From a virus (Duplodnaviria > Heunggongvirae > Uroviricota > Caudoviricetes), in IMG/VR virus record IMGVR_UViG_3300029886_000071: a stretch of 30,556 nucleotides of DNA. One strand, written 5' to 3'. The notes beneath the pieces were generated by a model. It searched no databases. It was not told the origin of the DNA and was given only the letters and a program-made list of their open reading frames with translations. The stretch's first letter is position 1; every line of letters begins with the position of its first letter. A program made the position numbers and the translations under genes. Shown here in pieces: positions 367 to 30,286 of this stretch.

Positions 367-723
367 ATGCGTGATATGTATGAAGTAATGGATCGTTGGG
401 GAGCTTGGGCTGCTTCAGACAATAGCGGAGTGGACTGGCAGCCGATAGCGGCTGGTTTCAAGGGACTTTTACCTCATGGCAAAAAGTCACGGATTCAGTG
501 TGATGATGACGAAGGCATCATGATAGACAGTTGTGTGGCTCGGTTGAGAAGGTATAAACCAGAGGAATATGAGCTCATCATCGCCCACTTTGTTATCGGT
601 ATCTCATTACGCACTATTGCGAAGAAGAGAAAATGCTCTGATGGCACAATTAGGAAGGAACTGCAAACTGCAATGGGGTTTGTTGACGGCTGTTTAGCAA
701 TGTTAGCTTATAGTATGGCATAA
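367..723 (+). CDS. Putative late-gene antiterminator (Q-like, small phage-82-type) with C-terminal HTH-like region
   Basis: ORF 352..723; ATG at 367 preceded by GGAGA. Position upstream of the lysis cassette; C-terminal EYELIIAHFVIGISLRTIAKKRKCSDGTIRKELQ resembles a sigma region-4 / LuxR-type helix-turn-helix. Family assignment is from memory. Confidence 0.5.
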   Translation: MRDMYEVMDRWGAWAASDNSGVDWQPIAAGFKGLLPHGKKSRIQCDDDEGIMIDSCVARLRRYKPEEYELIIAHFVIGISLRTIAKKRKCSDGTIRKELQTAMGFVDGCLAMLAYSMA

Positions 724-1917
724 AAAATAAAATAGATTTACTGCCGATTTTTCAAAAAAGACTGGGAACTGTTTATATCCAACGTAAATAAGGCCTCCAT
801 AAAACATGGCTGATGCGAGATATTTAACAGTTCTCATCCTTTTTTTAGCTTTATCAATCAAACCTGTAATGCTACTCTTAATACTATCTGCATTATCTTT
901 GATTTCTTTATTTTCTTCAAACTTTAAATACTTATCGAAAGCGGACTCCACTCGAGAACGTAAGTTGTCGAATGTTTCATTGAATATCTCAATAGAAATG
1001 TAATTGACTTTTTTTATCATCCAAAGTCCTGCGATAATCAATATTGCCTCGGTTGTTTCATTAGCCTTCACTAAGCCACCAGCAGCTATTAATGCACCGG
1101 GAATAGTCAATGCTTTTGTCTGATTAGATGATATGAATTCGTTAATTTTACTCGTGAACTCAAGATTTTTCTCATCGAGTTCGTTAAGAATTTTATTTAC
1201 AGAAAACCTCTTTGTGTAAATCTCATATAGTTCATCATATTTTTTCCTGACGAGTTCAGTAGAGTTAAGCAAGTCAAAGAAATTGAACGTACCATTTGCT
1301 TTAAATACTTCGTTTATGGCTGAGCGTATAACGAGCTTGCGCTCGCTTTTGTGTAAATCATTGATTTTTATTGTGTCGAGAAGCTCCTTTATAATTTCAT
1401 ATTTAAGAGACGAGTTCGATAAGCGATTAATCTCGCTATATTGTAAAAAATGCGTGAGTTCGACTGTATAACTTTTGTCTTCATTGGTGAAAAATAAGAC
1501 AGAGCAGTCACTGTTATGATGATCAGCAATTAATGAAAGGATATCTTTCCACATAAAGAAAATATGGATTTTTTCGATGCTTTCATTCTTAGAAGTAGGG
1601 AGTATTAACGGCGTTCCGATGATATAATTTTTCGGAAGAGCGTTTTGGGTGTTTACTCTAGACCAAAAAGACTCAACATTCTCATAAATTATAGCGTCAT
1701 CCCAAGATGAAGCTTGGCGATCTAGCCAAATTTCATTATTTTCGATGCAGGTTGTTGCCTTTTTATAACCTATAGATTGTAACAGTCTAATTATTTCAGA
1801 ACTATTTACAATAACAATGCTTTCTTCAAGACTTATGACAGTGTAGTAGCCCTCAACTCTGCTTGAGGCTCCGTTAATAATCTGCGCTAATCTTGATAAG
1901 TCATCAGCAATTGTCAT
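703..1917 (-). CDS. Hypothetical protein with C-terminal hydrophobic helices (cargo gene B, downstream gene of a two-gene operon); candidate effector
   Basis: 404-aa ORF, AT-rich; start codon 2 bp downstream of the stop of the 1920..3095 gene on the same strand; hydrophobic segments ALTIPGALIAAGGLV, AILIIAGLWMI and YLASAMFYGGLIYVGY near the C-terminus; K/E-rich predicted helical region. Confidence 0.75.
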   Translation of the reverse strand: MTIADDLSRLAQIINGASSRVEGYYTVISLEESIVIVNSSEIIRLLQSIGYKKATTCIENNEIWLDRQASSWDDAIIYENVESFWSRVNTQNALPKNYIIGTPLILPTSKNESIEKIHIFFMWKDILSLIADHHNSDCSVLFFTNEDKSYTVELTHFLQYSEINRLSNSSLKYEIIKELLDTIKINDLHKSERKLVIRSAINEVFKANGTFNFFDLLNSTELVRKKYDELYEIYTKRFSVNKILNELDEKNLEFTSKINEFISSNQTKALTIPGALIAAGGLVKANETTEAILIIAGLWMIKKVNYISIEIFNETFDNLRSRVESAFDKYLKFEENKEIKDNADSIKSSITGLIDKAKKRMRTVKYLASAMFYGGLIYVGYKQFPVFFEKSAVNLFYFLCHTIS

Positions 1918-1919
1918 TA

Positions 1920-3095
1920 TTAGCTGTCTCTATATCTTTTGAGTTCATCATAATTTGCCTGACTCAATTTTATCACAATTTCGCATTTGTTGTCAGTGAG
2001 AATTACAGGCTTATTTGACTTTTCGTCTCCAATAGCTCCACGCATTATTTTCAACTTAAAATTATTGTCGTTATCTGCCACTTCAATTGTAAGCGCGCTT
2101 TCAGCTGCTTTAGGAGTTGGTTCAAATTGAGGGTCAATCTGGAAACCATTAAGATTAACAAAATCGACAAACGTTCCCTTACATTTGTGTGAATCAGTCA
2201 GGCATGAGTCAATTATTTTTGAAATATCCTCTATCTTAACGGACTTATTTCCGTGTTTATCTTTTGATTTTTTTTCCAGTAAGGATTTAACTTCGTTGTC
2301 AATAGTATCACGCAGTACACGACCGAGTGAGTTTTTACTAGCAAAAATATCTATAGCACTGAATAATTGCTGAATGCTTCTTTTATTGTCCGAATCATGT
2401 CGGCAACCTAATGAGTCTTTGAAAAAATCGCTTTTAGATTTACCTTGCAAGAAATGTACATATGAGTCACCCTTGTTTTCTGGATAACTGGCTTCGAATA
2501 AAGTTAAATCGAACATCGCAGCCTGCCGTAAGGCATCGGTATTAATTGGATTTAATCTTGTTGGGGTCAACTTATCCGAATCAAAGTCATAGGCGCTTTG
2601 TTTATCAACCATTACGATTAGAAGTTTCCCCAAATCCTCTGGTTCGGTAGACTTATAGTGGATGAAAACAACGCTCCCCCCCTGAAGTTGGGCAACTCTC
2701 GATTCGTTATTAGCATTATGTTTAAGCTTCTCTATTATAGCTCTAGATAAATCAATGAATTCATTATTTTTATTAATGTATTTTTTTAGGATCGTAGGAA
2801 TGGATGAAGGGTTGTGATCTGAGTCTAGGAAGTTATGAAATTTGTTTTTTCGGCTAAATTTTTTCTCAATTCTGGTTATGAATTCAGATGTGACTTCATT
2901 TTTTAGATCCCAAACTTCACCTAATCGATAATCAAATGCTCTTGAATCATTTTTTTCAAGATTTGCTGTTACAGCACCAATAGGAAAGTACGATTGTTTG
3001 CCCAGCACTACAACATGAGGCGTGGCACCGCATTTATCGCAAGCTACAGTTGGGTCGTCAAGAACATTGCCACATTCTAAACAAGTTATATCCAT
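1920..3095 (-). CDS. Zinc-ribbon protein with NdpA/YejK-like (NA37) nucleoid-associated domain (cargo gene A, upstream gene of a two-gene operon)
   Basis: 391-aa ORF, AT-rich; N-terminal CLECG...(12 aa)...CDKCG zinc-ribbon motif; motifs GGSVVFIHY and YVHFLQGKSKSDFFKDSLG match my recollection of the YejK/NdpA family ([31 protein letters not shown]). Confidence 0.75.
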   Translation of the reverse strand: MDITCLECGNVLDDPTVACDKCGATPHVVVLGKQSYFPIGAVTANLEKNDSRAFDYRLGEVWDLKNEVTSEFITRIEKKFSRKNKFHNFLDSDHNPSSIPTILKKYINKNNEFIDLSRAIIEKLKHNANNESRVAQLQGGSVVFIHYKSTEPEDLGKLLIVMVDKQSAYDFDSDKLTPTRLNPINTDALRQAAMFDLTLFEASYPENKGDSYVHFLQGKSKSDFFKDSLGCRHDSDNKRSIQQLFSAIDIFASKNSLGRVLRDTIDNEVKSLLEKKSKDKHGNKSVKIEDISKIIDSCLTDSHKCKGTFVDFVNLNGFQIDPQFEPTPKAAESALTIEVADNDNNFKLKIMRGAIGDEKSNKPVILTDNKCEIVIKLSQANYDELKRYRDS

Positions 3096-3716: not shown

Positions 3717-4193
3717 ATGCAGGCACTAAATTCCCAGCGTAAAGCTTTCCTGGATATGGTGGCATGGTCAGAAGGAACGGATAACGGGCGACAACCGACA
3801 CGTAACCACGGTTATGATGTTATTGTTGGTGGCGAACTGTTCACTGATTACTCCGATCACCCTCGCAAACTTGTCACGCTAAACCCCAAACTCAAATCAA
3901 CAGCTGCCGGACGTTACCAGCTTCTTTCACGCTGGTGGGATGCTTACCGTAAACAGCTTGGCCTGAAAGATTTTTCTCCAGAAAGCCAGGACGCTGTAGC
4001 TCTGCAGCAGATTAAAGAGCGTGGTGCTTTACCGATGATTGACCGCGGCAGTATTCGTCAGGCAATCGACCGTTGCAGCAATATCTGGGCGTCGTTACCT
4101 GGTGCAGGTTACGGTCAGTATGAACATAAAATCGGTGACCTGATTGCCCGATTTAAAAAAGCTGGTGGGGTAGTAAATGAAGCTGAGATATAA
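3717..4193 (+). CDS. R: Endolysin, lambda R-type lytic transglycosylase
   Basis: Translation (QRKAFLDMVAWSEGTDNGRQPTRNHGYDVIVGGELFTDYSDHPRKLVTLNPKLKSTAAGRYQLLSRWWDAYRKQLGLKDFSP...) is near-identical to lambda R as I recall it; GGAG RBS. Confidence 0.92.
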   Translation: MQALNSQRKAFLDMVAWSEGTDNGRQPTRNHGYDVIVGGELFTDYSDHPRKLVTLNPKLKSTAAGRYQLLSRWWDAYRKQLGLKDFSPESQDAVALQQIKERGALPMIDRGSIRQAIDRCSNIWASLPGAGYGQYEHKIGDLIARFKKAGGVVNEAEI

Positions 4194-4569
4194 GCTGGTT
4201 ATTGTTGCCTTCGTTGTTAGCGTCATTGGTTCCTTCATCTGGTCTGCTGGACATTACTACAGCAAATATCAGCACGAAAAGGAGCGTGCTGATGAGGCTG
4301 TACGAAATGCTGAATCAGCAACTGCCATTACCCGTAACGTTCTGCAATCACTGCAAATCATCAATACAGTTATAGAGGCTAACCAGCATGCAAAACAGCA
4401 GATCGCACTGGAGTCACAGAGAACCCAGGAAGATATCAAAGTGGCTGTTGCGGATGATGATTGTGCTTCAAGTCATGTGCCTGCTGCCGCTGCTGACCGG
4501 TTGCGGAAGTACGCGAACAGTTTACGTGCCGGTTCCGGCGGTACCGCTGCCAACAAGCCTGACCACTGA
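4177..4569 (+). CDS. Rz: i-spanin (Rz-like)
   Basis: 130-aa ORF overlapping the end of R; N-terminal TM helix (LVIVAFVVSVIGSFIW) then coiled-coil-like periplasmic domain; lambdoid position after R. Confidence 0.8.
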   Translation: MKLRYKLVIVAFVVSVIGSFIWSAGHYYSKYQHEKERADEAVRNAESATAITRNVLQSLQIINTVIEANQHAKQQIALESQRTQEDIKVAVADDDCASSHVPAAAADRLRKYANSLRAGSGGTAANKPDH

Positions 4570-4711
4570 AACGCCCCAGCCAGTCATTCCCGACCCGCTG
4601 ACCTATGGGGCCAGTCTGGATCTGAATGTGAGCCTGCTTTCGGCGCTGGGCCAGTGCAACATCGACAAGGCCAGTATCAGGAAGATAGAAACGTCACGCA
4701 ACTCACAGTAG
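4454..4711 (+). CDS. Rz1: o-spanin lipoprotein (Rz1-like), overlapping the 3' end of Rz in another frame
   Basis: ORF 4388..4711 contains MMIVLQVMCLLPLLTGC lipobox-type signal followed by a proline-rich sequence (PVPAVPLPTSLTTETPQPVIPDP) typical of Rz1. Confidence 0.6.
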   Translation: MMIVLQVMCLLPLLTGCGSTRTVYVPVPAVPLPTSLTTETPQPVIPDPLTYGASLDLNVSLLSALGQCNIDKASIRKIETSRNSQ

Positions 4712-4750
4712 CCATTACAAAGCTCATCTGCGGGTGGGCTTTGTAATGGC

Positions 4751-5050
4751 TTATTCGTAGTTGTCACCAGGGAAGTATTCCTGAAACTTTGATTTTGGGA
4801 GCTGGGTTTTCGCGAAGTTCGCAAGCCTTCCTCTTGTAAGCATGTAGTCACACCCACCTTCTTGTTTGAGAAGGTCACCAGCTAATGTCCGATACACAAC
4901 GTCACTTCGCAAAATTTCAATGGTGGAATTCCTGATGAGAAATGTTTCACACATCGGGCATCTAATTAACCAAGCGGTATCACGGTTCTGCCAGGTCGCA
5001 TCTGAATTGCAAGCCGGGCAGCATTTCTGATCTTCTTGTCCTATGACCAT
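4751..5050 (-). CDS. Small hypothetical zinc-ribbon protein (moron candidate) between lysis and packaging genes
   Basis: ORF 4751..5056 on the minus strand; second ATG (5048..5050) has better RBS spacing; CCPAC...(18 aa)...CPMC motif; opposite strand to all flanking phage genes. Confidence 0.5.
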   Translation of the reverse strand: MVIGQEDQKCCPACNSDATWQNRDTAWLIRCPMCETFLIRNSTIEILRSDVVYRTLAGDLLKQEGGCDYMLTRGRLANFAKTQLPKSKFQEYFPGDNYE

Positions 5051-5129
5051 TGTCATGCTCTCGCATAGTGAAGGAATTTTCAGATTAACTCATTTTCAGA
5101 CGCATCGTAATGGCTTAAGGAAACAATTA

Positions 5130-5480
5130 ATGCCACCACGTACACCAAAAGCCTGCCGCGTTCGCGGTTGCCGCCATACCACAACTGACCCGTCAGGCTA
5201 TTGCGAAAGCCACAAAAGCGAAGGCTGGAAGCAATACAAACCAGGCCTGTCACGTCATCAGCGCGGTTACGGTTCGAAGTGGGATACCATCCGTGAACGT
5301 GTGCTGAAGCGTGACAAAGGCCTGTGTCAGTTATGTCTGCGTTCTGGTGTGGTGCGTGAGGCGAAAACCGTTGACCACATCATCCCTAAAGCGCATGGCG
5401 GCACTGATGCTGACAGTAATCTGCAGAGTCTGTGCTGGCCGTGCCATAAGGCGAAGACGGCCCGTGAACGGTTAAAGTGA
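5130..5480 (+). CDS. HNH homing-type endonuclease associated with the terminase
   Basis: ORF 5043..5480; ATG 5130 has AAGGA RBS; cysteine/histidine motifs (CRVRGCRH...CESH, DHIIPKAHGG, CWPCHKAK); position just upstream of terminase as in HK97-like phages. Confidence 0.8.
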   Translation: MPPRTPKACRVRGCRHTTTDPSGYCESHKSEGWKQYKPGLSRHQRGYGSKWDTIRERVLKRDKGLCQLCLRSGVVREAKTVDHIIPKAHGGTDADSNLQSLCWPCHKAKTARERLK

Positions 5481-5506
5481 TAATAATTCTCAACTGTCTG
5501 AGGGGA

Positions 5507-24152: not shown

Positions 24153-25610
24153 TTATTTGACGTAAATGTGGTTTCTGTATTTGACAAAAATCACATCACA
24201 CACGCTTTCAATATCTTCAGGTTGACCATAAATTTTCTTCACAATATTCAATTGTTCTTTATTCTCAAGAATAAAGAAATTATTTCCTTTGTTATACCAT
24301 TCGCTATTTGTAAGCCAGTTATCTCTTTTTATTTCATTGTTATTAAAAAGTATATTTGCTATTTTTATGTCTCCATTCACACCAACAGAGTTAGTAAATG
24401 TGAAAGGGGCATATCCATAATTTGCTTTGTGCTCGTTGATTTTTTCTCTAATACATGACATCTGATTGTATCTATTATCAGTGGAGCCATTAATATTTAT
24501 TGTTTTAATTCCTGATATTATACCCAAAAAAGCTATTAATAAAATAATGCTTTTTTTATTAAATTTAGATCTTGACAAAAGAATTACTGCCATAATGAAG
24601 ACGGGAACAAGGTATCTTATTGTCCATATATTTCTTGGGAGGTTACTACCAATATAAGCAGATGTCATGATTAAAATAGACAATGACAAACATATATCAA
24701 TAACGCTTCTGTTTTTAAAAAGATTTCTGAAAGTGAAGTAAATTAATGCAACAACACCAGCAAAGCGTATTGCTTTAGATAATAGATGCAGTGATGGTGT
24801 TATTTGCTCACCAAATATGTTTGCATTAAAAAACAATAAAGTTCCGCTTACTGCAGTATTTATATTAACTAAAATATTGTCATACTCAACAATCTTTACA
24901 TCTGTTAGTCCTGGCAATGTAAAGCTTCCAAGGTTTAAAAACAAAAAACCGATCGCCTTGGAAATTAAATATGAAGAAAACAATCCAGCCATTATAATAA
25001 GGTATTTCTTTTTTCTTTCCTTGTGCAACAAAAATATTGCTGCTAATGTTAGCGGTGCAACGTATATATAGACTGAGATATTATCGCTAAAAATAGCCAT
25101 AGAGGATAGTATGGTTGAAAAGTATACAAATAATATATTTTCTGTTTTAATATACTTTTCTGTAAATATTAAGCATCCAATGATAAATATGTATGTACCC
25201 ATGTGAATGCACGCTGAAAGCATTGATGTAACAGCCATGTCAGCAGGGAAAACAAAGTAGAATATAATTAGCGCTAATGCTAATGATTTATTTGTAGACA
25301 GCCTGTATATCAAAAATATCACAGTAGCATACATCGCTGGTGGTATTATATATGCAAGCTCACTGCTGTAGCCAAATAATATAGAGGCGATCGCATAAAA
25401 AGATACTTCTGTAAAGTAAAAAGGAACCGTGGATAGCATCCATCCATGAAGTAAGTAATTACCTTCTGACATATCCTTACCAAGCAAAAGCACTGTTGCC
25501 GCATCTGTATTTGGTGGGAATATGTTTAAGCTGGCAAAGTGATATAGCATAAACAATGACGCAAATAATAAAATCACGAATATAAATTTAATTTGTTTTT
25601 TGAAAATCAT
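24153..25610 (-). CDS. GtrC-like serotype-specific O-antigen glucosyltransferase (polytopic membrane protein)
   Basis: 485-aa very AT-rich ORF with many hydrophobic helices; third gene of the operon after gtrA and gtrB with 1-nt overlap with gtrB. Confidence 0.7.
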   Translation of the reverse strand: MIFKKQIKFIFVILLFASLFMLYHFASLNIFPPNTDAATVLLLGKDMSEGNYLLHGWMLSTVPFYFTEVSFYAIASILFGYSSELAYIIPPAMYATVIFLIYRLSTNKSLALALIIFYFVFPADMAVTSMLSACIHMGTYIFIIGCLIFTEKYIKTENILFVYFSTILSSMAIFSDNISVYIYVAPLTLAAIFLLHKERKKKYLIIMAGLFSSYLISKAIGFLFLNLGSFTLPGLTDVKIVEYDNILVNINTAVSGTLLFFNANIFGEQITPSLHLLSKAIRFAGVVALIYFTFRNLFKNRSVIDICLSLSILIMTSAYIGSNLPRNIWTIRYLVPVFIMAVILLSRSKFNKKSIILLIAFLGIISGIKTININGSTDNRYNQMSCIREKINEHKANYGYAPFTFTNSVGVNGDIKIANILFNNNEIKRDNWLTNSEWYNKGNNFFILENKEQLNIVKKIYGQPEDIESVCDVIFVKYRNHIYVK

Positions 25611-26527
25611 TATTTATTACCCTTTAATATATACTTTGGACGCTGCTTAACCTCAACGTAGATACGCCCTATGTACTCACCTAGCACTCCAATCCCAATT
25701 AACTGGATGCCGCCAAGAAATAATATTGATACAAGAATTGAAGGGTATCCAGGTACATTATTACCAAAAATTAATTTATCAATTATCATCCATGAACCGT
25801 ATGTAAATGATATACATGCAATAAATAACCCAATATAGGTCCACATGCGAAGCGGGAATGTTGAGAAGCTAGTGATCCCTTCCAGCGCCAAGTTCCATAG
25901 CTTCCATCCATTGAACTTTGTGCTTCCTGCAACGCGTTCTGCTCGCGCATATTCTACGACATCGGTTCGACCACCAACCCAGCTCAGCACACCCTTCATA
26001 AACAGGTTTCGTTCTGGCATGAGCTTAATATTTTCTACTACTTCGCGAGACATGAGCCGGAAGTCGCCAACATTCTCTTCTATCTGAGGGTTGCTGATTT
26101 TGTTATGAAGTTTATAGAACCACTCAGCAGATTTACGCTTCAGCCTGCTGTCAGTGGAGCGGTCAGAGCGTTTAGCCAGAACCATATCTGCACCGGCCTG
26201 CCATTTCTCTATCAAGTGAGGAATAACTTCGATAGGGTCTTGCAGATCAACGTCAATCGGGATAATTGCCTCCCCGGTAGCATGGTCCAGACCTGCGAAC
26301 AGGGCGGGTTCTTTGCCGAAGTTACGTGTGAACGACAGCGAAACCACAAGCGGGTCGGCAACAGCGAGCTCGTTGATTATTGATTCTGTAGCGTCTTTGC
26401 TGCCATCGTTTATGAAGACTATCTCGACTTCATGCTGCTGAAGCCCTTCAAATTCGCGCACAGTTTTATAAAAAATAGGTATCGTGGCCTCTTCGTTAAA
26501 GACCGGAACGACTAAAGAAATTTTCAT
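25610..26527 (-). CDS. gtrB: Bactoprenol glucosyltransferase GtrB
   Basis: 305-aa ORF; N-terminal GT2 domain ([11 protein letters not shown]...INDGSKD...) and C-terminal TM helices; 4-nt overlap with gtrA. Confidence 0.9.
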
Positions 26528-26886
26528 TTCGCATCCCTAAAGACAATGAACTTTGAATAGACGAAACCGCACACCAGGCTGATGGCGGAGAAGGTGACAA
26601 GAGTTATCATCGGGGGAAGTGCGCATCTATCAGCAGCCCATCCAACAGTAGCACTGAGTGTTCCCATGAACCCGACATATAACATGTAGCGCATCGTTGT
26701 AGTTGATGCTTTGAATGTGAATTTTGCATTCGCGAAGAAGCTAAAACTCACAGCCACAACGAAACCTGCGAAGTTTGCCAGAGCCTGATTGGTATGCGCG
26801 GCATAGATACATACACCAAAAACCACCCAGTGTATAAGTGTGTTCAGCACACCAATCGAGGTGTACCTTGCAAATATATTTAACAT
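26524..26886 (-). CDS. gtrA: GtrA flippase-like small membrane protein
   Basis: 120-aa four-helix hydrophobic ORF; sequence closely matches my recollection of K-12 YfdG (GtrA family); first gene of the operon next to attR. Confidence 0.9.
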
Positions 26887-27334: not shown

Positions 27335-27811
27335 TTAACTAAACATCGCAGTAATCGAGGCGCTTGCCAGAGAATGGAAATGGACGTTAAACCCGACCAT
27401 CGCGCCGCTGGCACCTTCATCGACATCAATACGTTCTACATCCAGCGCGTGAACGGTAAAAATGTAGCGATGGGTTTCGCCTTTCGGCGGCGCTGCACCA
27501 TCGTACCCGGTTTTACCAAAGTCGGTACGCGTCTGCAAAACGCCGTCTGGCATTGCTACCAGACCAGAGCCAAACCCTTGCGGTAATACGCGGGTATCAG
27601 CGGGTAAATTAACAACTACCCAGTGCCACCAGCCGGAGCCGGTTGGCGCATCCGGGTCGTAGCAGGTGACAACAAAACTTTTCGTTCCCGCAGGAACATC
27701 ATCCCACGCCAGATGCGGTGAAACATTATCGCCATCGTAACCCATGCCGTTAAAGACATGACGATGTGGCAACTTATCGCCATCGCGCAGATCATTACTG
27801 ATGAGTTTCAT
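27335..27811 (-). CDS. ybhB: YbhB, PEBP-family (kinase inhibitor-like) protein
   Basis: 158-aa ORF matching E. coli YbhB as I recall it; chromosomal position next to bioA. Confidence 0.9.
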   Translation of the reverse strand: MKLISNDLRDGDKLPHRHVFNGMGYDGDNVSPHLAWDDVPAGTKSFVVTCYDPDAPTGSGWWHWVVVNLPADTRVLPQGFGSGLVAMPDGVLQTRTDFGKTGYDGAAPPKGETHRYIFTVHALDVERIDVDEGASGAMVGFNVHFHSLASASITAMFS

Positions 27812-27869
27812 GAACCCTCCTTTCTAGTTTGCAGAAAGTGTAGCCAGAAACCCTCACGCTGACTTCCCG

Positions 27870-29159
27870 TTATTGGCAAAAAAATGTTTCATCCTGCACC
27901 GCACGATTAACCGCTGCGGTCAGACGCTGCAACTGTTGCGGGAGAATAATATAGGGCGGCATCAGGTAAATCAGTTTGCCAAAAGGCCGGATCCAGACAC
28001 CCTGTTCGACAAAGAATTTTTGCAGCGCTGCCATATTCACCGGACGAGTGGTTTCGACCACGCCAATGGCCCCTAGCACGCGCACATCGGCAACCATTTT
28101 GGCATCACGGGCTGGTGCCAGTTGCTCGCGCAGTTGTACTTCAATAGCCACCACCTGCTGCTGCCAGTCGCCAGATTCGAGAATCGCCAGGCTGGCGTTT
28201 GCTGCCGCGCAGGCTAGCGGATTGCCCATAAAAGTTGGCCCATGCATAAAGCAACCGGCTTCGCCGTTACTGATGGTTTCCGCAACCTCGCGCGTGGTGA
28301 GTGTGGCGGAAAGGGTCATTGTACCGCCGGTTAAGGCTTTACCGAGGCACAAAATGTCCGGCGCGATATCTGCATGTTCACAGGCAAACAGTTTGCCAGT
28401 ACGACCAAATCCGGTGGCGATCTCGTCGGCAATCAGCAAGATACCTTCGCGATCGCACATTTTGCGGATTCGTTTTAACCATTCCGGATGGTAGATGCGC
28501 ATCCCGCCTGCGCCCTGGACAATCGGTTCAATGATCACCGCCGCGATTTCATGACGATGCGCCGCCATCAGGCGGGCAAAGCCCACCATATCGCGCTCAT
28601 CCCATTCACCATCCATGCGGCTTTGCGGGGCGGGAGCAAACAAGTTTTCTGGCAGATAGCCTTTCCACAGACTGTGCATTGAGTTATCCGGATCGCACAC
28701 CGACATCGCGCCAAAGGTATCGCCATGATAACCATTGCGGAAGGTCAGAAAACGCTGGCGCGCTTCGCCTTTGGCTTGCCAGTACTGCAACGCCATTTTC
28801 ATCGCCACTTCCACCGCTACGGAACCGGAGTCCGCGAGAAAAACGCATTCCAGCGGTTGCGGCGTCATTGCCACCAGTTTGCGGCACAGCTCAATGGCTG
28901 GCGCATGGGTGATACCGCCAAACATCACATGCGACATGGCATCAATTTGCGACTTCATCGCCGCATTAAGCTGCGGGTGATTGTAACCGTGGATCGCCGC
29001 CCACCAGGACGACATACCGTCAACCAGGCGTCTGCCGTCAGACAAAATTAGCTCGCAACCTTCGGCGCTCGCCACCGGATAAACCGGTAGCGGGGAGGTC
29101 ATGGATGTGTATGGGTGCCAGATATGGCGTTGGTCAAAGGCAAGATCGTCCGTTGTCAT
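27870..29159 (-). CDS. bioA: Adenosylmethionine-8-amino-7-oxononanoate aminotransferase
   Basis: ORF 27870..29270; conserved BioA begins [17 protein letters not shown] at the internal ATG, giving 429 aa; divergent from bioB. Confidence 0.95.
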
Positions 29160-29245
29160 AATCGACTTGTAAACCAAATTGAAAAGATTTAGGTTTACGA
29201 GTCTACACCGAATTAACAACAAAAAACACGTTTTGGAGAAGCCCC
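29160..29245. promoter_or_regulatory. bioA-bioB divergent promoter region with bio operator (BirA binding palindrome)
   Basis: CTTGTAAACCAAATTGAAAAGATTTAGGTTTACGAG imperfect palindrome between the divergent bioA and bioB starts. Confidence 0.7.
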
Positions 29246-30286
29246 ATGGCTCACCGCCCACGCTGGACATTGTCGCAAGTCACAGAATTATTTGAAAAAC
29301 CGTTGCTGGATCTGCTGTTTGAAGCGCAGCAGGTGCATCGTCAGCATTTCGATCCACGTCAGGTGCAGGTCAGCACTTTGCTGTCAATTAAGACCGGAGC
29401 TTGTCCGGAAGATTGCAAATACTGCCCGCAAAGCTCGCGCTACAAAACCGGGCTGGAAGCCGAGCGGTTGATGGAAGTTGAACAGGTGCTGGAGTCGGCG
29501 CGCAAAGCGAAAGCGGCAGGATCGACGCGCTTCTGCATGGGCGCGGCGTGGAAGAATCCCCACGAACGCGATATGCCCTACCTGGAACAAATGGTGCAGG
29601 GAGTAAAAGCGATGGGGCTGGAGGCGTGTATGACGCTGGGTACGTTGAGTGAATCTCAGGCGCAGCGCCTTGCGAATGCCGGGCTGGATTACTACAACCA
29701 CAACCTCGACACCTCGCCGGAGTTTTACGGCAATATCATCACCACACGCACTTATCAGGAACGCCTCGATACGCTGGAAAAAGTGCGCGATGCCGGGATC
29801 AAAGTCTGCTCAGGTGGCATTGTGGGTTTAGGCGAAACGGTAAAAGATCGCGCCGGATTATTACTGCAACTGGCAAACCTGCCGACGCCGCCGGAAAGCG
29901 TGCCAATCAACATGCTCGTGAAGGTGAAAGGTACTCCACTGGCAGATAACGATGATGTCGATGCCTTTGATTTTATTCGCACCATTGCCGTAGCGCGGAT
30001 CATGATGCCGACCTCTTACGTGCGCCTTTCTGCCGGACGCGAGCAGATGAACGAACAGACTCAGGCGATGTGCTTTATGGCCGGGGCTAACTCGATTTTC
30101 TACGGTTGCAAACTGCTAACCACGCCGAATCCGGAAGAAGATAAAGACCTGCAACTGTTCCGCAAACTGGGGCTAAATCCACAGCAAACTGCCGTGCTGG
30201 CAGGGGATAACGAACAACAGCAGCGTCTGGAGCAGGCACTGATGACCCCGGACACTGACGAATATTACAACGCGGCAGCACTATGA
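29246..30286 (+). CDS. bioB: Biotin synthase
   Basis: 346-aa ORF; radical-SAM motif CPEDCKYC; sequence matches E. coli BioB. Confidence 0.95.

What the first reader, a model, noticed from the sequence alone, without database searches (positions are those of the whole stretch)
4751..5050. Small reverse-strand zinc-ribbon gene between Rz/Rz1 and the HNH endonuclease (second moron position)
Seen: a roughly 99-aa ORF on the strand opposite all flanking phage genes, with a CCPAC...CPMC zinc-ribbon-like motif and lower GC than its neighbours, at the post-lysis position where lambdoid phages carry morons such as bor. Function unknown; a small regulator, anti-defence or exclusion factor is plausible.
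Basis: partly seen in the sequence, partly recalled or inferred. Interest (0 to 1): 0.45.

Follow-up and report, generated by a model that had tools for sequence, protein, structure and literature searches.

The report
Unannotated zinc-ribbon moron gene in prophage
A real, conserved 99-residue zinc-ribbon gene that RefSeq leaves unannotated sits backwards, as a self-contained about 410-bp add-on cassette, between the lysis and DNA-packaging genes of an SfV/HK97-like E. coli prophage; what it does is still unknown.

Summary
A minus-strand ORF at 4751-5050 (99 aa; an in-frame ATG at 5056 would give 101 aa) fills the gap between Rz1/LysC (stop 4711) and the HNH endonuclease (ATG 5130).

It is a real gene:
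- Homologues of 38-91% identity exist.
- dN/dS is 0.07-0.13.
- Four cysteines are invariant (CPxC...Cx2-3C).
- AlphaFold2 gives a confident zinc ribbon plus a four-helix domain.

RefSeq annotates nothing here in any of the 32 E. coli genomes that carry it.

The gene travels as a block of about 407 bp (4712-5119). The block has about 70 bp of conserved 5' flank and a covarying 3' stem-loop, and GC is 44% against 51-56% in the flanks. In every homologue locus whose flanks could be read (some contigs are too short), the gene lies on the opposite strand between the lysis genes and the first packaging gene. This holds for phages with unrelated terminases. SfV has the empty site, with Rz1 and HNH 26 bp apart. 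That is moron architecture.

Function is unresolved. The only homology lead is a consistent but sub-threshold match of the ribbon to Pfam Lar_restr_allev. The C-terminal domain has no relatives, and no structural match was found. My best guess is a small protein-binding modulator in phage-host conflict, possibly Lar-like restriction alleviation (about 0.2).

This is an ordinary kind of element, but the family is uncharacterised.

The parts
4751..5050 (-). Coding sequence of the 99-aa zinc-ribbon protein (stop codon TAA at 4751-4753). An alternative in-frame ATG at 5056-5054 would add Met-Thr.
   Evidence: ORF list. All homologues start at MVIGQ. dN/dS is 0.07-0.13. C11/C14/C31/C34 are invariant. 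AF2 gives pLDDT 82.8 and pTM 0.65: strands 6-10, 17-23, 26-31 and 35-40, then helices 41-49, 51-63, 73-83 and 86-92.
4710..4751 (-). 3' stem-loop that begins directly after the stop codon (GCCATTACAAAGC...GCTTTGTAATGGC). There is no U-tract on the gene-sense strand. On the + strand it is followed by TTATTCGT.
   Evidence: Inverted repeat I1: 17-nt arms, 94% complementary. MFE is -27.9 kcal/mol, z = -5.4. It is conserved downstream of homologues: 7 of 15 pairs change on both sides, and 83% of cells pair against 27-50% when the partner is slid. It is also present in HK022, mEp235, mEpX2 and HK446, which lack the gene. No Rfam family matches.
5051..5119 (-). Conserved 5' flank of the cassette. 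It holds an SD-like GAGAG (5058-5062, 7 nt before the ATG), a candidate weak promoter (-35 TTACGA 5105-5110, 17-nt spacer, -10 TAATCT 5082-5087), and two copies of TCTGAAAAT (5076-5084 and 5092-5100).
   Evidence: The block is conserved with the gene in four unrelated flank contexts, and similarity stops about 74 nt upstream of the ATG. Direct repeat D3. The strict sigma-70 consensus scan found no promoter, so the promoter is a candidate only.
4743..4753 (+). Left copy of the 11-bp direct repeat GTAATGGCTTA. It lies in the 3' arm of the stem-loop and includes the complement of the stop codon.
   Evidence: the repeat finder family D2 (16 nt, 88% identity, spacing 364). The 11-mer occurs only twice in the 30.5-kb window.
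5107..5117 (+). Right copy of the direct repeat GTAATGGCTTA, at the upstream edge of the cassette and 13 bp before the HNH start codon.
   Evidence: A GCCATTA-like motif lies at the same place in homologous cassettes that have the CATTA/TAATG stem-loop, and is absent in the subfamily that lacks the stem-loop.

Best explanation
The feature is a single-gene accessory cassette (a moron) of about 407 bp, at 4712-5119. It sits between the lysis module (Rz1 stop at 4711) and the packaging module (HNH ATG at 5130) of an SfV/HK97-like prophage, and it is transcribed against the late operon.

It encodes a soluble, slightly acidic 11.4-kDa protein with two parts: an N-terminal C4 zinc ribbon whose sequence is closest to Lar/RalR-type ribbons, and a family-specific four-helix C-terminal domain.

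Shown:
- the gene is real;
- the cysteines are invariant;
- the cassette has discrete boundaries and a covarying 3' stem-loop;
- the slot (lysis | first packaging gene, opposite strand) is conserved in phages with unrelated terminases;
- a related phage has the empty site.

Inferred:
- The gene is transcribed from its own weak promoter, independently of Q-dependent late transcription. That would mean expression in the lysogen and/or immediately on DNA entry. The stem-loop would then define or stabilise the 3' end.
- The protein acts by binding another macromolecule, more probably a protein than DNA, in phage-host or phage-phage conflict.

The only specific role with any homology support is Lar-like modulation of host restriction. 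My rough split is:
- Lar-like anti-restriction or anti-defence: about 0.2-0.25
- prophage-expressed exclusion or defence factor: about 0.3
- regulator: about 0.15-0.2
- something else: the remainder

The confidence of 0.6 is for the whole reading: a real gene, in a moron cassette, with an accessory conflict-related role. For 'real gene in a discrete accessory cassette' alone I would give about 0.9.
For: Real gene: 24 protein clusters and 18 IMG/VR loci, with identity down to 38%. dN/dS is 0.07-0.13. The exact protein was seen on at least 1000 contigs from E. coli, Shigella and Salmonella.

Zinc ribbon: four Cys are invariant, and all five AF2 models are consistent (pLDDT 76-83).

Moron features:
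- GC is 44% against 51-56% in the flanks.
- In SfV, Rz1 and HNH are 26 bp apart. SfI and HK022 carry other fillings in the slot.
- The block is conserved with sharp edges in four different flank contexts.
- The 3' stem-loop covaries. One subfamily member (L020) instead has an A-run/stem/T-run motif at the 3' end, whose predicted fold is not significant (z = -0.5).

Position: wherever the flanks could be read, the gene is on the opposite strand between the lysis genes and the packaging genes. It is directly divergent from terS, HNH or a ParB-like gene in most loci. The terS genes belong to PHROGs 51 and 1206 or the P27 family.

Lar lead: all 23 members have Lar_restr_allev as their best Pfam family (E from 1e-5 to 5e-3). 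PHROG 6422 'Lar-like' matches at E = 0.026. hhalign against K-12 RalR aligns 31 ribbon columns at 49.5% probability.

Protein-binding rather than DNA-binding: pI is 5.43 and net charge -1.5. Only the ribbon hairpin's S16, A18, W20 and N22 are invariant (the rest of SDATWxNxDT is well conserved), alongside few basic residues.
Against: - No sigma-70 consensus promoter and no canonical intrinsic terminator were found, and I have no expression data. Independent transcription is therefore inferred only.
- The Lar similarity is below Pfam's gathering score (17.6 against 28.6 bits) and covers only the ribbon (profile positions 4-33 of 58). Zinc ribbons cross-match easily.
- Lar/RalR itself is described both as a restriction-alleviation factor and as a DNase toxin (PMC4041452), so even membership would not fix the mechanism.
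- No defence-family match (PADLOC).
- RefSeq's pipeline does not call the gene.
Confidence: 0.6

Rival explanations
1. It is a small transcription factor, with a zinc ribbon plus an HTH-like helical domain in the manner of MqsA or IS1 InsA. It would bind the repeated TAAGCCATTAC / TCTGAAAAT motifs and regulate itself or the adjacent packaging and lysis genes.
For: - The gene lies close to the first packaging gene, and directly divergent from it in most loci.
- The cassette has repeated motifs at its ends and in its 5' flank.
- The C-terminal helices 3-4 resemble a unit repeated eight times in an 869-aa protein (P0009), which weakly matches Pfam HTH_32. hhalign gives E = 3e-4 over 25 columns.
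Against: - No HTH family match for any of the 23 members.
- The hhalign probability is only 38.7%.
- pI is 5.4 and few basic residues are conserved.
- The C-terminal domain occurs with no other partner domain.
- The subfamily L020-L026 lacks the repeated motifs yet keeps the protein.
Confidence: 0.17
2. It is a RalR-like toxin (a DNase) of a type I toxin-antitoxin pair. The antisense late transcript, or an unrecognised small RNA, would act as the antitoxin.
For: - The ribbon is Lar/RalR-like.
- RalR is reported to be a non-specific endodeoxyribonuclease kept in check by the sRNA RalA (PMC4041452; K-12 annotation).
- The gene is necessarily antisense to the late operon.
- Occasional frameshifted or truncated copies exist (P0006, P0017, P0018).
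Against: - Similarity is limited to the ribbon. The C-terminal part of the Lar profile is not matched.
- No RNA family was found.
- The gene is intact and nearly identical in all 32 complete E. coli genomes that carry it. That neither requires nor excludes toxicity.
Confidence: 0.07
3. It has a positional role in packaging or lysis. The protein, or its antisense transcript, would tune expression of terminase/HNH or Rz/Rz1, or act at the nearby cos/pac region. On this reading it is not dispensable cargo.
For: The slot is the same across four or more unrelated packaging modules, at 38-91% protein identity.
Against: - SfV, SfI and HK022 are viable phages without the gene.
- tblastn finds no copy in 50,697 sequenced phage records.
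- Only 32 of 5,426 complete E. coli genomes carry it.
- Positional conservation is typical of lambdoid mosaic modules in general.
Confidence: 0.08
4. It is a spurious ORF in an intergenic spacer, which is the implicit RefSeq view.
For: - PGAP annotates nothing there in 32 of 32 genomes.
- Antisense ORFs of about 100 aa are common in this window.
- No consensus promoter was found.
Against: - dN/dS is 0.07-0.13, with saturated synonymous change at 61% identity.
- Homologues at 38% identity keep their length and the Cys pattern.
- Other pipelines call the gene.
- The AF2 model is confident.
Confidence: 0.02

Closest known systems
Lar / RalR of the Rac prophage (Pfam PF14354 Lar_restr_allev; PHROG 6422)
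   Same: Both are small prophage-encoded cytoplasmic proteins built on a CPxC...CxxC zinc ribbon. Lar_restr_allev is the best Pfam family for all 23 members. The ribbon aligns to K-12 RalR.
   Different: The score is below the family threshold. Only the ribbon aligns, and the C-terminal half of the Lar profile is unmatched. This protein carries an extra helical domain of about 60 residues that is found nowhere else. The genomic place also differs: Lar sits in the early recET region, whereas this gene sits between the lysis and packaging genes. Activity is untested.
Lambda bor, and morons in general (HK97 gp15; definition in PMC3594210)
   Same: It is extra DNA between genes that are adjacent in a relative. 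Its GC differs from the flanks. It is a single gene. Like bor (my own knowledge of lambda), it lies just after Rz/Rz1 on the opposite strand.
   Different: Bor is an outer-membrane lipoprotein. This protein has no signal peptide or membrane segment and is unrelated in sequence. Its own promoter and terminator are not demonstrated: there is a stem-loop without a U-tract and no consensus promoter.
Other fillings of the same Rz1 | HNH slot (SfI gp63 DUF6979 plus a 67-aa hydrophobic ORF; the HK022 spacer)
   Same: They occupy the same insertion slot in the same phage group. HK022 shares the stem-loop and an AATGGCTTA boundary motif.
   Different: The cargo is unrelated. The SfI genes are on the forward strand and have a classical terminator.
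MqsA-type antitoxins and IS1 InsA (N-terminal zinc ribbon plus C-terminal HTH); comparison from my own knowledge
   Same: The overall layout is similar: a small protein with a CxxC...CxxC ribbon followed by a helical domain.
   Different: No family match, no neighbouring toxin or transposase gene, and the C-terminal domain is not a recognisable HTH.

Membership tests
Moron (accessory cassette in a temperate phage; PMC3594210) | Extra DNA between two genes that are adjacent in a related phage | tested here: met
   In SfV, the Rz1 stop and the HNH ATG are 26 bp apart. Here they are 418 bp apart.
Moron (accessory cassette in a temperate phage; PMC3594210) | Base composition differs from the surrounding genes | tested here: met
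   The cassette is 44.3% GC, against 50.9% for the lysis genes and 55.6% for HNH.
Moron (accessory cassette in a temperate phage; PMC3594210) | Own promoter | tested here: inconclusive
   About 70 bp of conserved 5' flank holds a weak -35 TTACGA / 17 nt / -10 TAATCT candidate. The consensus scan found none.
Moron (accessory cassette in a temperate phage; PMC3594210) | Own terminator | tested here: inconclusive
   The covarying stem-loop directly after the stop codon has no U-tract on the sense strand. One homologue (L020) has an A-run/stem/T-run motif instead, but its predicted fold is not significant.
Moron (accessory cassette in a temperate phage; PMC3594210) | Expressed from the repressed prophage | not testable with these tools
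   Needs RNA-seq or a reporter in a lysogen.
Lar_restr_allev (PF14354) | Score at or above Pfam's gathering threshold (28.6 bits) | tested here: not met
   The window protein scores 17.6 bits, E = 0.0046. The best member reaches E = 1.3e-5. Seven clusters carry a precomputed PF14354 hit.
Lar_restr_allev (PF14354) | Match over the whole 58-position profile, including the C-terminal half | tested here: not met
   Only profile positions 4-33 align. hhalign to RalR covers 31 ribbon columns.
Lar_restr_allev (PF14354) | Restriction alleviation or DNase activity | not testable with these tools
   Needs plating-efficiency and nuclease assays.
C4 zinc ribbon fold | Two CxxC-type knuckles, each at the tip of a beta-hairpin, with invariant cysteines | tested here: met
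   C11, C14, C31 and C34 are invariant in 23 sequences. The second knuckle is CxxC or CxxxC. In the AF2 model, C11-C14 lie between strands 1 and 2 and C31-C34 between strands 3 and 4. Metal binding itself was not tested.
Helix-turn-helix DNA-binding domain | Significant match to an HTH family or fold | tested here: not met
   No HTH family at E <= 0.01 in any member. No fold match. The only link is a weak one through the P0009 repeats.
Known anti-phage defence proteins (PADLOC 2.0) | Match to a defence-system model | tested here: not met
   Only LmuB at E = 0.036, 10 bits.

The most novel reading that the evidence does not exclude
The cassette may belong to a class of hairpin-bounded, exchangeable cargo units in lambdoid phages. 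The short boundary repeats (TAAGCCATTAC at both ends, the 3' copy forming the outer stem of a covarying hairpin) would be the sites at which different cargos are swapped into the lysis | packaging junction. HK022 carries the same hairpin and boundary motif around a different filling.

The cargo itself would be a new anti-restriction or anti-defence protein: a Lar-type ribbon fused to a new domain. In cos phages it would lie within about 1 kb of the DNA end that enters the cell first, reading inward from that end, so it could be expressed before the rest of the genome is exposed.
Probability: 0.1. Interest if true: 0.6.

Novelty: new member of a known kind. Interest (0 to 1): 0.3.

Why it matters
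This is a conserved protein family under purifying selection, present in E. coli, Shigella, Salmonella and Enterobacter prophages. It has no Pfam, NCBIfam or PHROG model and no structural relative, and current RefSeq annotation leaves it out.

Accessory genes in this slot are a known source of lysogenic-conversion, exclusion and anti-defence functions. The same prophage carries a DS-1 type defence gene in its other cargo slot. The gene is therefore a cheap, well-delimited candidate for functional screening.

The hairpin-plus-repeat boundaries could also say something about how cargo is exchanged between lambdoid phages. On present evidence, though, the element is an ordinary moron whose function is unknown.

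Tried and rejected
Family libraries:
- Pfam, PHROGs, NCBIfam and PADLOC scans of the protein gave only sub-threshold zinc-ribbon matches.

Sequence searches:
- A full HMMER search of 1.84 billion cluster representatives gave four hits, all family members except the repeat protein P0009.
- A word-indexed profile search brought the family to 24 clusters.
- A search with the C-terminal domain alone recovered only the family itself.
- The PDB sequence search gave only generic ribbon matches, E >= 0.18.

Structure searches:
- Foldseek against BFVD and PDB gave no hit with E < 0.2.
- The afdb50 library was unavailable.

Collections:
- tblastn against 50,697 phage records found no match.
- Plasmids gave one match, on a 1.3-Mb replicon.
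- The pattern scan of GTDB species-representative genomes confirmed nothing.

Other tests:
- Rfam on 4300-5500 found nothing meaningful.
- The consensus promoter/terminator scan found nothing.
- The P0009 repeats were tested as a route to annotating the C-terminal domain. hhalign probability was 38.7% and the PDB hits were insignificant, so the lead is left as weak.

Rejected ideas:
- MqsA-like antitoxin or IS1 InsA-like protein: no family match and no partner gene.
- LexA box or integron attC-like reading of the flank motifs: they do not fit the consensus across homologues.
- Spurious ORF: contradicted by dN/dS.

Full report
THE OBSERVATION

The window has a minus-strand ORF at 4751..5056 (101 aa from the first ATG). 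Every homologue begins at the second ATG with MVIGQ. An SD-like GAGAG (5058-5062) lies 7 nt before that ATG and would be too close to the ATG at 5056.

The ORF fills the gap between Rz1/LysC (stop 4711) and the HNH endonuclease (ATG 5130 in RefSeq annotation). The neighbours on the plus strand are:
- lambda-family holin;
- endolysin;
- Rz (DUF2570) and Rz1;
- HNH;
- P27-family small terminase and large terminase.

The motifs CCPAC and CPMC are present. GC is 45.3% for the gene and 44.3% for the cassette, against 50.9% for the lysis genes and 55.6% for HNH.

IS IT A GENE?

Length alone is not evidence, because the window contains many antisense ORFs of about 100 aa. RefSeq annotates nothing here in any of the 32 complete E. 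coli genomes (of 5,426) that carry the sequence at 99% identity or more. GenBank and other pipelines do call it, always as 'hypothetical protein'. The exact protein was seen on at least 1000 contigs from E. coli, Shigella sonnei and Salmonella.

Conservation settles the question:
- The protein database holds homologues at 91, 87, 81 and 61% identity. A profile search extends the family to 24 clusters, down to 38% identity. IMG/VR gives 18 loci.
- Pairwise dN/dS is 0.07-0.13, and synonymous sites are saturated at 61% identity.
- C11, C14, C31 and C34 are invariant, as are M1, G4, P12, S16, A18, W20, N22, I39, A57, L71 and T72. The additional cysteines of the window protein (C10, C67) are not conserved.
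- A few copies are frameshifted or truncated (P0006, P0017, P0018).

THE PROTEIN

AlphaFold2 with the 23-sequence alignment gives pLDDT 82.8 and pTM 0.65, and all five models are alike. The model has four strands (6-10, 17-23, 26-31, 35-40), with C11-C14 between strands 1 and 2 and C31-C34 between strands 3 and 4, which is the zinc-ribbon layout. Four helices follow (41-49, 51-63, 73-83, 86-92). The protein is 11.4 kDa, with pI 5.43 and net charge -1.5.

No curated family reaches its threshold. However, Lar_restr_allev (PF14354) is the best Pfam family for all 23 members (E from 1.3e-5 to 5e-3). It always covers only profile positions 4-33 of 58, which is the ribbon. PHROG 6422 'Lar-like restriction alleviation protein' matches at E = 0.026. 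Profile comparison with K-12 RalR/Lar aligns 31 ribbon columns at 49.5% probability.

The C-terminal domain is unique to the family. A search with it alone returns only family members. The full HMMER search of 1.84 billion representatives found one outsider, an 869-aa protein with eight tandem repeats that resemble helices 3-4 and weakly match HTH_32. Profile-profile probability for that link is only 38.7%.

THE CASSETTE

I aligned the window with three homologous loci whose flanks are unrelated. Similarity starts abruptly about 74 nt upstream of the ATG and ends at the end of a stem-loop that begins right after the stop codon. In the window, the unit is about 4712-5119.

The stem-loop:
- It has 17-nt arms that are 94% complementary.
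- MFE is -27.9 kcal/mol, z = -5.4.
- It is conserved downstream of most homologues. The outer stem (CATTA/TAATG) is constant and the inner stem changes.
- 7 of 15 pairs change on both sides. 83% of cells pair, against 27-50% when the 3' partner is slid. No shuffle out of 500 reaches the observed covariation score.
- One pair is U.G in 7 of 8 sequences. It can only form on the gene-sense strand, a small hint that the structure acts in the gene's own transcript.
- It has no U-tract on that strand, so it is not a canonical terminator, and the scan tool reports none.
- One subfamily member (L020) instead carries an A-run/stem/T-run motif, whose predicted fold is not significant (z = -0.5).

The 5' flank:
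- It holds a weak promoter candidate: TTACGA, a 17-nt spacer, then TAATCT.
- It also holds two copies of TCTGAAAAT.
- No consensus promoter was found.

An unexplained detail: the 11-mer GTAATGGCTTA occurs only twice in the 30.5-kb window, at 4743-4753 and 5107-5117, which are the two ends of the cassette. Homologous cassettes with the CATTA/TAATG stem-loop also carry a GCCATTA-like motif at their upstream edge. The subfamily without the stem-loop has neither.

THE SLOT

In every homologue locus whose flanks could be read, the gene lies on the opposite strand between the lysis genes and the packaging module. In most it is directly divergent from the first packaging gene, 50-100 bp away. The packaging modules themselves are unrelated:
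- HNH plus a P27-family terS in the window;
- PHROG 51 terS (L017, L020);
- PHROG 1206 terS (L026);
- a ParB-like gene ahead of terS (L027);
- Mu-F/portal_3 head modules (L004, L007).

Phage SfV has the empty site, with the Rz1 stop and the HNH ATG 26 bp apart. SfI has other cargo there: a DUF6979 gene and a small hydrophobic ORF with a classical terminator. HK022 has the same stem-loop and an AATGGCTTA motif around a different spacer of about 190 bp. In L020 a DndB-like gene shares the slot.

This matches the published description of morons: extra DNA relative to related phages, different GC, and an independent transcription unit (PMC3594210). The position and orientation are those of lambda bor (my own knowledge).

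FUNCTION

Nothing here shows function. The facts that bear on it are:
- It is a soluble, slightly acidic small protein.
- Its most conserved surface is the ribbon hairpin SDATWxNxDT, with few conserved basic residues. That fits protein binding better than DNA binding.
- It has a Lar-type ribbon. Lar/RalR is reported as a restriction-alleviation factor (King and Murray 1995, cited in PMC4041452) and as a DNase toxin of a type I toxin-antitoxin pair (PMC4041452).
- Its orientation and cassette structure suggest expression independent of the late operon.
- It is dispensable and rare. It is absent from 50,697 phage records by tblastn and present in 0.6% of complete E. coli genomes.

I therefore read it as an accessory, conflict-related modulator. 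My rough probabilities are:
- Lar-like anti-restriction or anti-defence: 0.2-0.25
- prophage-expressed exclusion or defence: about 0.3
- regulator: 0.15-0.2
- RalR-like toxin: about 0.07
- positional role in packaging or lysis: about 0.08
- spurious ORF: about 0.02

VERDICT

The element is a new member of a known kind: a moron carrying an uncharacterised small zinc-ribbon protein family. It is worth a functional screen, but it would not surprise a specialist. Interest 0.3.

Noticed in passing
window 703-3095 (-): A two-gene, very low-GC (35%) cassette lies between the Q antiterminator (352-723) and the holin. The 391-aa protein (1920-3095) has an N-terminal CxxC...CxxC motif and a YejK-like nucleoid-associated domain. 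It matches NCBIfam NF053868 'DS1_1_antiphage' at 451 bits (cut-off 330). The 404-aa partner (703-1917) has no Pfam match. A YejK nucleoid-associated domain is among the domains newly validated in defence by DefensePredictor (PMC13092281).
   Followed up: partly
window 24153-26886 (-): This looks like an O-antigen glucosylation (serotype-conversion) cassette at the far end of the prophage: GtrA-like (120 aa), a family-2 glycosyltransferase that is GtrB-like (305 aa), and a 485-aa protein with no Pfam match that is probably the type-specific Gtr.
   Followed up: partly
window 27335-30286: The right end of the window looks like host chromosome: a PEBP-family protein (YbhB-like), a class-III aminotransferase (BioA-like), and a radical-SAM/BATS protein (BioB-like). 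From my own knowledge, this is the neighbourhood of the lambda attachment site near bio.
   Followed up: no
window 4707-4748; L029 (HK022) 1201-1242 and 1436-1444: The stem-loop after Rz1 is shared at 93% identity with HK022, HK446, mEp235, mEpX2 and mEp506, none of which has the zinc-ribbon gene. HK022 also has an AATGGCTTA motif about 190 bp further on, resembling the window's second boundary repeat.
   Followed up: partly
P0009 (869 aa; from the representative library, origin unknown): This large protein has eight tandem repeats of about 62 residues (consensus ...L.L.EIAE...ETGIEVS..KV...AKEKL.PEEYQ.RFP). They resemble the last two helices of the zinc-ribbon family and weakly match Pfam HTH_32. 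Its C-terminal 190 residues have no match.
   Followed up: partly
L001 5478-5747 (= window about 4177-4446): RefSeq marks the Rz (DUF2570) gene as an incomplete pseudogene in strain CFSAN061770. Other records with the same protein annotate it as intact at 130 aa. The window ORF 4177-4569 is intact. This is an annotation inconsistency, not a sequence difference.
   Followed up: no
L020 8385-10066 (-): In one distant homologue locus, the same lysis | packaging slot also holds a DndB-like (PF14072) 379-aa gene and a 181-aa partner with no family match. This is probably further defence-type or modification-type cargo.
   Followed up: no
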